This document shows, in pieces, positions 22,169 to 22,355 of a stretch of DNA of 64,000 nt. This stretch comes from a virus. The notes beneath the pieces were generated by a model. The model made no database searches and was not told where the DNA came from. It was given only the letters and a program-made list of their open reading frames with translations. The position numbers were made by a program, and so were the translations under genes. The DNA is taken from the IMG/VR virus record IMGVR_UViG_3300025818_000017. One strand, written 5' to 3'. Within the stretch, counting starts at the first letter, position 1, and every line of letters starts with the position of its first letter.

Positions 22169-22355
22169 AGGATACTCACAGCAACTATTATGAATCTTTT
22201 ATTGGAAAAAGCAGAATAGTATCCTGTCTTATTGGGGAAGCATGCAGCAAATAACTTTACATCCGTAGAAAGGGCCACAAGCCCGCCATTATACTCCTTC
22301 AAGGGAAACCGCTTCCCGCACTAATGGGGAACCTTGAAGGGAGTATTTTGGTTTT
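22169..22355 (+). ncRNA. tandem CAGCAA-bulge hairpins plus competing terminator (structured leader / Y-RNA-like candidate)
   Basis: AGGATAC-TCA-CAGCAA...GTATCCT-G and GGGAAGC-ATG-CAGCAA...GCTTCCC-G; 14-bp hairpin 22291-22346 followed by a T-rich tail. Confidence 0.6.

What the first reader, a model, noticed from the sequence alone, without database searches (positions are those of the whole stretch)
22235..22355. Mutually exclusive antiterminator/terminator switch in the vWA leader
Seen: ATACTCCTTCAAGG (22291-22304) pairs with CCTTGAAGGGAGTAT (22332-22346), 14 bp with one bulge, followed by TTTGGTTTT, which is terminator-like. The second CAGCAA stem (22235-22241 with 22311-22317) would enclose its 5' arm, so the two folds cannot coexist. 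Inference: a ligand or protein binding the CAGCAA element controls read-through into the vWA gene, like an attenuator possibly sensing RNA damage.
Basis: partly seen in the sequence, partly recalled or inferred. Interest (0 to 1): 0.7.

Follow-up and report, generated by a model that had tools for sequence, protein, structure and literature searches.

The report
Knotted RNA handle before Ro60-like gene
This stretch is the second of two small "handle" RNAs in front of a phage gene for a Ro60-like RNA-binding protein; the long hairpin that straddles the handle is real and kept in related phages, but only here does it look like a transcription stop, so a regulated switch is possible but unproven.

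Summary
Stem A (22235-22241 with 22311-22317) is the closing stem of a CAGCAA "handle". This RNA module sits in 1-6 copies upstream of Ro60-like DUF2828 genes in many phages. This scan has already noted the family on other DNA (271 notes in at least 204 genomes). I found it neither in Rfam 15 nor in the papers searched.

Hairpin B (22291-22346) is also real. Three syntenic relatives (57-70% protein identity) carry the same handle and a hairpin of different sequence that likewise encloses the handle's 3' arm. Six of its nine outer pairs show compensatory changes. Three unrelated lineages have the same crossing design.

Two points weaken the switch reading. A and B share no nucleotides, so they cross like a pseudoknot rather than exclude each other. 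The run of U that makes B terminator-like is strong only in this phage.

Best reading: a two-handle, Y-RNA-like transcript whose conserved crossing hairpin doubles here as an intrinsic terminator 17 nt before the ribosome-binding site. Protein-controlled read-through remains a live minority hypothesis. I found no evidence for RNA-damage sensing.

The parts
22107..22135 (+). Sigma-70-type promoter (12 of 12 consensus matches, 17-nt spacer). The transcript is expected to start near 22142.
   Evidence: A second match, 11 of 12, lies at 22014-22043.
22168..22226 (+). Handle 1: 7-bp closing stem 22169-22175 with 22219-22225, CAGCAA at 22179-22184, and a 3' G at 22226.
   Evidence: Covariance model R1 scores 46.3 bits, E 6e-9 over the window, but this module was in the training set. 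It passes the fixed-register test.
22234..22318 (+). Handle 2: closing stem A 22235-22241 with 22311-22317, CAGCAA at 22245-22250, a 3' G at 22318, and a 60-nt interior.
   Evidence: R1 scores 22.5 bits, E 2.4e-4 and E 0.008 genome-wide, and this module was not in the training set. Orthologues in L193, L194 and L197 carry one compensatory pair change in the stem.
22256..22284 (+). Two small predicted hairpins inside handle 2: 22256-22269 and 22272-22284.
   Evidence: Present in all predicted folds. Single-sequence prediction only.
22291..22346 (+). Hairpin B: 14 bp with a bulge at 22339. The 5' arm 22291-22304 lies inside handle 2, and the 3' arm 22332-22346 lies beyond it. Its top holds the handle's 3' arm.
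   Evidence: The same crossing hairpin, with different sequence, occurs in L193, L194 and L197. On alignment A4 96.9% of cells pair and 6 of 9 pairs show changes on both sides.
22313..22331 (+). Apical extension of B: 22313-22317 pairs with 22327-22331. This is the only helix that truly competes with stem A for the same bases.
   Evidence: GGGAA occurs four times in 22235-22367 against one complementary site at 22313.
22347..22355 (+). U-rich tract directly after hairpin B, which makes B terminator-like.
   Evidence: 31 tracts this dense in 64 kb. It is absent after the equivalent hairpin in L193 and L194 and weak in L197.
22361..22365 (+). Shine-Dalgarno-like purine run, 7 nt before the start codon.
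   Evidence: Read. It overlaps the fourth GGGAA copy at 22363.
22373..23818 (+). Gene for a 481-aa Ro60-like protein (Pfam DUF2828 plus DUF7788; PHROG 850 'RNA-binding protein').
   Evidence: The AlphaFold model has pLDDT 82. The top Foldseek hits are full-length Ro60/TROVE structures at E about 1e-7, TM 0.53-0.62.

Best explanation
The stretch is the 3' half of a roughly 210-nt, two-handle, Y-RNA-like transcript. It is made from the promoter at 22107-22135 and co-transcribed with the Ro60-like gene.

Handle 2 belongs to a subclass of CAGCAA handles in which a long hairpin (B) starts in the handle's interior, encloses the handle's 3' arm in its top, and closes beyond it. Both helices are evolutionarily kept. 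Because they share no bases they most likely coexist as an H-type pseudoknot, with a local 5-bp helix at the top of B as the only direct competitor of stem A.

In this phage B is followed at once by a dense U tract and lies 17 nt ahead of the ribosome-binding site. It therefore probably also acts as an intrinsic terminator. Part of the transcripts would end near 22350-22355 as a free two-handle RNA, and the rest would read through as mRNA for the protein that presumably binds these handles.

Shown here: the helices, their conservation, the family membership and the protein fold. Inferred: protein-handle binding, coexistence of A and B, and termination.
For: Handle family and the register of stem A.

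Protein fold is Ro60-like.

Hairpin B is stable and non-random.

B is conserved with sequence turnover in the syntenic relatives L193, L194 and L197.

The same crossing design occurs in the unrelated lineages L060/L062, L074/L075 and L113. Nine of 117 handles have a crossing duplex at z <= -2.5, while the median z is 0.19.

A and B share no bases, and the energies are comparable. A plus the inner hairpins gives -20.4 kcal/mol, B's main stem gives -17.4, and B with its extension and the inner hairpins gives -31.6.

The U tract after B is rare in this genome.

There is no room for a promoter between B and the start codon, so the gene needs read-through.

A separate, canonical terminator sits between the last handle and the gene in L109. 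This shows that the layout 'RNA, terminator, gene' exists elsewhere in the family.
Against: There are no expression data, so termination at 22350-22355 is a prediction. B's top is 27 nt, far larger than the 3-8-nt loops of typical terminators, and the consensus scan did not list it. The U tract is interrupted by GG. Pseudoknot formation cannot be computed with the tools at hand. Nested folding favours B over A by about 10 kcal/mol, so in the free RNA handle 2 might simply be open. Only four distinct sequences support B in this clade, and two of them (L193, L194) share part of the arm sequence.
Confidence: 0.58

Rival explanations
1. Regulated attenuator. The Ro60-like protein (or another factor) binds the nascent handle 2, locks stem A, and hinders hairpin B sterically or topologically. 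Its level would then decide between termination (free RNA) and read-through (mRNA).
For: Stem A is predicted to form before B's 3' arm is made. The top of B competes with A for 22313-22317, and GGGAA is repeated four times around a single complementary site, one copy being in the ribosome-binding site. L197 has a 6-bp local hairpin on the same 3' arm. In the wider family the last handle abuts or even encloses the translation start, which suggests that handles act as cis operators for this protein.
Against: A and B's main stem share no bases, unlike known attenuators. The crossing hairpin is kept in lineages where it has no U tract and is not next to the gene, so its conservation is not explained by termination control. 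Locking A would give positive feedback, which is unusual for RNA-binding proteins. No binding data exist.
Confidence: 0.22
2. B is a purely architectural part of the RNA (a pseudoknotted handle) and does not terminate. The U-rich run is an incidental AT-rich spacer, and the whole leader is simply the 5' UTR.
For: Equivalent hairpins in L193, L194, L060, L062, L074 and L113 lack a U tract. B's large top is atypical for terminators, and the scan did not call it.
Against: Tracts this U-rich occur only 31 times in 64 kb. The other two near this locus also follow hairpins at gene ends.
Confidence: 0.13
3. B, about 22 bp long when its extensions are counted, is a double-strand-specific RNase (RNase III-type) processing site that separates the small RNA from the mRNA.
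For: Length and near-continuity of the helix. This rests on general knowledge of phage early-transcript processing.
Against: No specific evidence. The helices in relatives are shorter and interrupted in different ways.
Confidence: 0.05

Closest known systems
Ro60 (Rsr) with Y RNAs: bacterial and phage YrlA/YrlB (PMC4201824) and Thermus phage phiLo Ro60 with Yrl1/Yrl2 (PMC12135203)
   Same: A ring-shaped Ro60-fold protein gene is preceded on the same strand by tandem small RNAs. Each has a closing stem and a short conserved unpaired motif beside it. Some family members carry tRNA-like parts.
   Different: The protein is Pfam DUF2828/DUF7788, not TROVE, and has no sequence match in the PDB. The motif is CAGCAA, not the CGAA-type motif. 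There is no Rfam Y_RNA or YrlA match. A hairpin crossing the protein-binding stem is not described for Y RNAs in the papers read.
Protein-dependent transcription attenuators (TRAP at the Bacillus trp leader, PyrR, BglG/SacY-type antiterminators; from general knowledge)
   Same: A leader RNA carries a protein-binding element that overlaps a terminator placed just ahead of the regulated gene. The upstream structure forms first during transcription.
   Different: In those systems the competing helices share a strand. Here A and B share none. The terminator is not conserved among relatives.
Pseudoknotted autoregulatory leaders, e.g. the phage T4 gene 32 mRNA pseudoknot and the E. coli rpsO (S15) leader (from general knowledge)
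   Same: Crossing helices lie in the 5' leader of a gene whose product is an RNA-binding protein, in a T4-like phage context.
   Different: Binding here is only inferred. The knot involves a repeated, family-wide handle rather than a unique operator. In this phage it is coupled to a U tract.
Dictyostelium Class I RNAs (Rfam RF01414)
   Same: A short stem joins the two ends, with ACAGCAA directly after its 5' strand. Handle 1 gives the only Rfam match in the region.
   Different: The score is 24.6 bits against a gathering score of 41.5, E 0.26, so it is not a member by Rfam's criterion. The known partner there is an RRM protein (PMC7919456 listed; not read in detail).

Membership tests
CAGCAA-handle RNAs linked to DUF2828 genes (undescribed family, seen repeatedly by this scan) | 7-bp closing stem whose 5' strand occupies positions -10 to -4 before CAGCAA, with a perfect partner downstream followed by G | tested here: met
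   Both modules pass. In the family 75 of 107 pass, against 1/50 and 1/95 in controls.
CAGCAA-handle RNAs linked to DUF2828 genes (undescribed family, seen repeatedly by this scan) | Significant match to a covariance model built from other members | tested here: met
   Module 2, not in the training set, scores 22.5 bits, E 2.4e-4 and E 0.008 over the whole record. Default filters missed it.
CAGCAA-handle RNAs linked to DUF2828 genes (undescribed family, seen repeatedly by this scan) | Same strand as, and next to, a DUF2828/Ro60-like gene | tested here: met
Intrinsic (Rho-independent) terminator | Stable G+C-containing stem directly followed by a U tract | tested here: met
   14-bp stem at -22.7 kcal/mol. 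The U-rich run starts one base after it.
Intrinsic (Rho-independent) terminator | Compact loop of about 3-8 nt | tested here: not met
   The apical region is 27 nt and partly structured. The consensus scan did not list it.
Intrinsic (Rho-independent) terminator | RNA 3' ends mapped at the U tract | not testable with these tools
   Uncultured phage with no expression data.
Terminator/antiterminator attenuator | Alternative helices compete for the same nucleotides | tested here: not met
   Stem A (22235-41 with 22311-17) and B's main stem (22291-304 with 22332-46) share none. Only B's 5-bp apical extension competes for 22313-17.
Terminator/antiterminator attenuator | Terminator and its competitor conserved together in relatives | tested here: not met
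   The crossing hairpin is conserved, but the U tract is absent in L193 and L194 and weak in L197. No convincing interleaved terminator was found among 104 handles of more distant loci.
Terminator/antiterminator attenuator | Read-through responds to a bound factor | not testable with these tools
   Needs in vitro transcription with the purified protein.
H-type RNA pseudoknot | Two crossing helices, each supported by conservation or covariation | tested here: met
   Stem A. Helix B.
H-type RNA pseudoknot | Both helices present at the same time in one molecule | not testable with these tools
   Loop lengths of 49, 6 and 14 nt and rough energy sums allow it. No pseudoknot folding or probing was available.
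Y RNA / YrlA (Rfam) | Match to the Rfam covariance models | tested here: not met
   No match at E <= 1 in the window region, and none at gathering score in 20 related loci.

The most novel reading that the evidence does not exclude
The handle plus crossing hairpin is a co-transcriptional sensor of free Ro60-like protein. Binding to the nascent handle would decide whether RNA polymerase stops (giving free partner RNA) or reads on (giving mRNA). The particle would then set its own RNA-to-protein ratio through a pseudoknot-gated terminator, a form of attenuation in which the competing helices share no bases.
Probability: 0.2. Interest if true: 0.7.

Novelty: new variant of a known kind. Interest (0 to 1): 0.48.

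Why it matters
DUF2828 is a very large family of phage and bacterial proteins with a Ro60 fold and no established function. One member, Bas63 gp130, was reported to counter a defence system (bioRxiv 10.1101/2024.10.10.617714).

A subclass of its partner RNAs carries a conserved hairpin that crosses the protein-binding stem. That gives a concrete structural feature to probe. In this phage it also gives a simple in vitro assay, termination with or without the protein, for whether the protein binds its handle and regulates its own locus.

If the switch is not real, the finding is still a clean example of a pseudoknotted Y-RNA-like handle.

Tried and rejected
- blastn of the leader against cultured phages found no match.
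- Protein-guided scans of IMG/VR and JGI metagenomes gave relatives of only <=54% identity, whose leaders cannot be aligned to B.
- Exact-word scans for handle 2 and for B's 3' arm gave chance hits, apart from one unrelated handle with the same arm in L171.
- Rfam gave only a sub-threshold Class I RNA hit, and tRNA and tmRNA in related loci.
- A second MAFFT alignment without the window row (A3) misaligned the 3' arms and was dropped.
- Raw duplex energies did not separate crossing helices from noise. Z-scores against shuffles did.
- P0007 had no retrievable DNA. L198 has a 56-nt gap without a handle, and L199 has handles but no crossing helix.
- The covariation count on A1 is partly circular, because the modules were picked by their stems. 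The fixed-register test is the fair one.

Considered and set aside:
- A small-molecule riboswitch. There is no conserved pocket-like core, and the interiors vary.
- RNA-damage sensing. No evidence.
- Coding potential of the short minus-strand ORFs over the region. The motif enrichment is strand-specific.

Full report
**What is at the coordinates**

The window is part of a 94.5-kb IMG/VR phage record with T4-like genes. The finding lies in the 351-nt gap between two genes:
- a CCA-adding enzyme gene (20861-22021);
- a 481-aa gene (22373-23818) that matches Pfam DUF2828 and DUF7788 and PHROG 850 'RNA-binding protein'.

A perfect sigma-70-type promoter lies at 22107-22135.

- 22291-22304 pairs with 22332-22346 as 14 bp with one bulge at 22339, followed by a U-rich run at 22347-22355.
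- 22235-22241 pairs with 22311-22317 as 7 bp.

The hairpin is far more stable than shuffled sequence: -22.7 kcal/mol, z -3.41, 0 of 200 shuffles as stable. With flanks it is -28.4 kcal/mol, z -4.33. Tracts with at least 8 T in 10 nt occur at only 31 places on the + strand of the window.

**What stem A is**

I fetched 160 related loci by protein. The 600-700 nt upstream of the DUF2828 gene is enriched about six-fold for CAGCAA on the coding strand: 1.6 per kb, against 0.28 in coding sequence and 0.35 on the reverse strand.

In a test with no freedom of register, 75 of 107 upstream CAGCAA have a perfect 7-nt Watson-Crick partner for positions -10 to -4 within 220 nt downstream. Sixty-seven of these partners are followed by G. 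Controls gave 1 of 50 (coding) and 1 of 95 (reverse strand). In the whole window exactly two sites pass, at 22169-22226 and 22235-22318.

A covariance model was built from 36 short modules. It included module 1 but not module 2. It recovers module 2 with its closing stem at 22.5 bits, E 2.4e-4 in 3 kb and E 0.008 over the whole record. Nothing else in the record matches.

Stem A is therefore the closing stem of a conserved RNA 'handle'. Rfam 15 has no family for it. I found no paper describing it.

This scan has noted the same handle next to DUF2828 genes many times on other DNA: 271 notes in at least 204 genomes. The family itself is not new to the scan.

**The protein**

An AlphaFold model (pLDDT 82) matches full-length Ro60/TROVE structures at E about 1e-7 and TM 0.53-0.62. 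The hits include Xenopus Ro, Deinococcus Rsr and Thermus phage phiLo Ro60. Sequence search of the PDB finds nothing.

Canonical Ro60 genes in bacteria and phages are preceded by Y-RNA-like genes with a CGAA-type motif (PMC4201824; PMC12135203). By analogy and by co-occurrence, the CAGCAA handles are most likely this protein's RNA partners. That binding is inferred, not shown.

**What hairpin B is**

The distant relatives could not test B. A search of the large protein collection gave closer ones: P0002 at 70% identity, P0003 at 65% and P0004 at 57%. Their contigs (L193, L194-196, L197) share gene order with the window: the DUF2828 gene, a 53-55-aa ORF, then IF-1.

Each carries an orthologue of handle 2, with one compensatory pair change in stem A. 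Each also carries a long hairpin that starts in the handle's interior, holds the handle's 3' arm in its top, and closes beyond it.

These hairpins are individually significant, with z from -2.75 to -4.61. Their arm sequences differ.

I made an unsupervised alignment anchored on the conserved centre (A4). On it the outer nine pairs are 96.9% paired, and six pairs show changes on both sides. Slid controls give 34-59% paired.

Across 117 handles the crossing duplex has a median z of 0.19. Nine handles stand out at z <= -2.5:
- all four members of this clade;
- L060 and L062;
- L074 and L075;
- one handle of L113.

Helix B is therefore a conserved structural feature of a subclass of handles.

**Do A and B exclude each other?**

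They share no nucleotide. Their arrangement is that of an H-type pseudoknot with connecting stretches of 49, 6 and 14 nt, which are long enough to span the helices.

Rough energies:

| Structure | kcal/mol |
|---|---|
| A plus the two inner hairpins | -20.4 |
| B's main stem alone | -17.4 |
| B with apical extension and inner hairpins | -31.6 |

Pseudoknot energy models add a penalty of 7-10 kcal/mol (general knowledge). With that penalty, 'A plus B' comes out about equal to 'B alone'.

The only true competitor of A is the 5-bp helix at B's top (22313-22317 with 22327-22331). GGGAA occurs four times between 22235 and 22367, around a single complementary site. One of those copies lies in the ribosome-binding site. 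L197 has an even stronger local hairpin on the same 3' arm.

Prefix folding predicts that A forms first, and that nested folding flips to B once 22346 is transcribed.

**Is B a terminator?**

In this phage it probably is. A rare, dense U tract follows B at once. There is no space for a promoter before the start codon, so the gene depends on read-through.

This is not the conserved role of B, for three reasons:
- The equivalent hairpins lack a U tract in L193, L194, L060, L062, L074 and L113, and L197 has only four U.
- In more distant relatives the last handle usually ends 11-35 nt before the start codon, directly against the Shine-Dalgarno sequence. In KVP40 the handle encloses both the Shine-Dalgarno sequence and the start codon.
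- In L109 a separate compact terminator follows the last handle. About a dozen handles are themselves followed by a U run.

**Verdict**

The most likely reading (about 0.6) is a two-handle, Y-RNA-like transcript whose conserved crossing hairpin, probably knotted with the handle stem, here doubles as an intrinsic terminator. This would yield both a free small RNA and read-through mRNA.

A protein-gated attenuator (about 0.2) cannot be excluded and is cheaply testable in vitro. Nothing supports a small ligand or RNA-damage sensing.

This is a new variant of the Ro60/Y-RNA theme. Interest is moderate. The handle family has already been found repeatedly by this scan. What this analysis adds is the conserved crossing hairpin and its possible use as a terminator.

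Noticed in passing
window 22170-22226: Handle 1 gives the only Rfam hit in the region: Dictyostelium Class I RNA (RF01414) at 24.6 bits, below the gathering score of 41.5. Both share a terminal stem followed by ACAGCAA.
   Followed up: no
L166:816-859 (Vibrio phage KVP40, NC_005083.2): A handle (19.3 bits) whose interior holds the Shine-Dalgarno sequence and whose 3' arm contains the start codon of the DUF2828 gene. This suggests translational autoregulation.
   Followed up: partly
L165:2609-2677 and 2776-2835 (Salmonella phage Felix O1, NC_005282.1): Two strong handles (36.8 and 36.7 bits) lie between annotated tRNA genes just downstream of the DUF2828 gene. The record does not annotate them.
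   Followed up: partly
window 22235, 22303, 22327, 22363 versus 22312-22317: There are four GGGAA copies within 133 nt, where about 0.14 are expected from 67 copies in 64 kb, around one complementary site. The last copy overlaps the ribosome-binding site, so the handle's 3' arm could also mask it.
   Followed up: partly
window 22147-22170: A 7-codon mini-ORF starts about 5 nt after the predicted transcript start. Its stop codon overlaps the first bases of handle 1. It is probably fortuitous.
   Followed up: no
window 23995-25230; L191-L197: The gene order is conserved in the 57-70% relatives: the DUF2828 gene, a 53-55-aa ORF, an IF-1-like gene (Pfam eIF-1a), then an Fe-S biosynthesis-like gene. 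The CCA-adding enzyme upstream is present only in this phage.
   Followed up: no
L083, L118, L130, L101, L197: Handle variants with CCGCAA, CAGCAT or CAGCAC in place of CAGCAA keep the same stem register and the 3' G.
   Followed up: partly
L109:1323-1400, L061 (about 266-205 nt before the gene), L047: Some handle interiors contain T-arm-like or partial tRNA-like folds. Rfam's tRNA model matches positions 6-65 in L061. This parallels the tRNA-like domain of YrlA.
   Followed up: no
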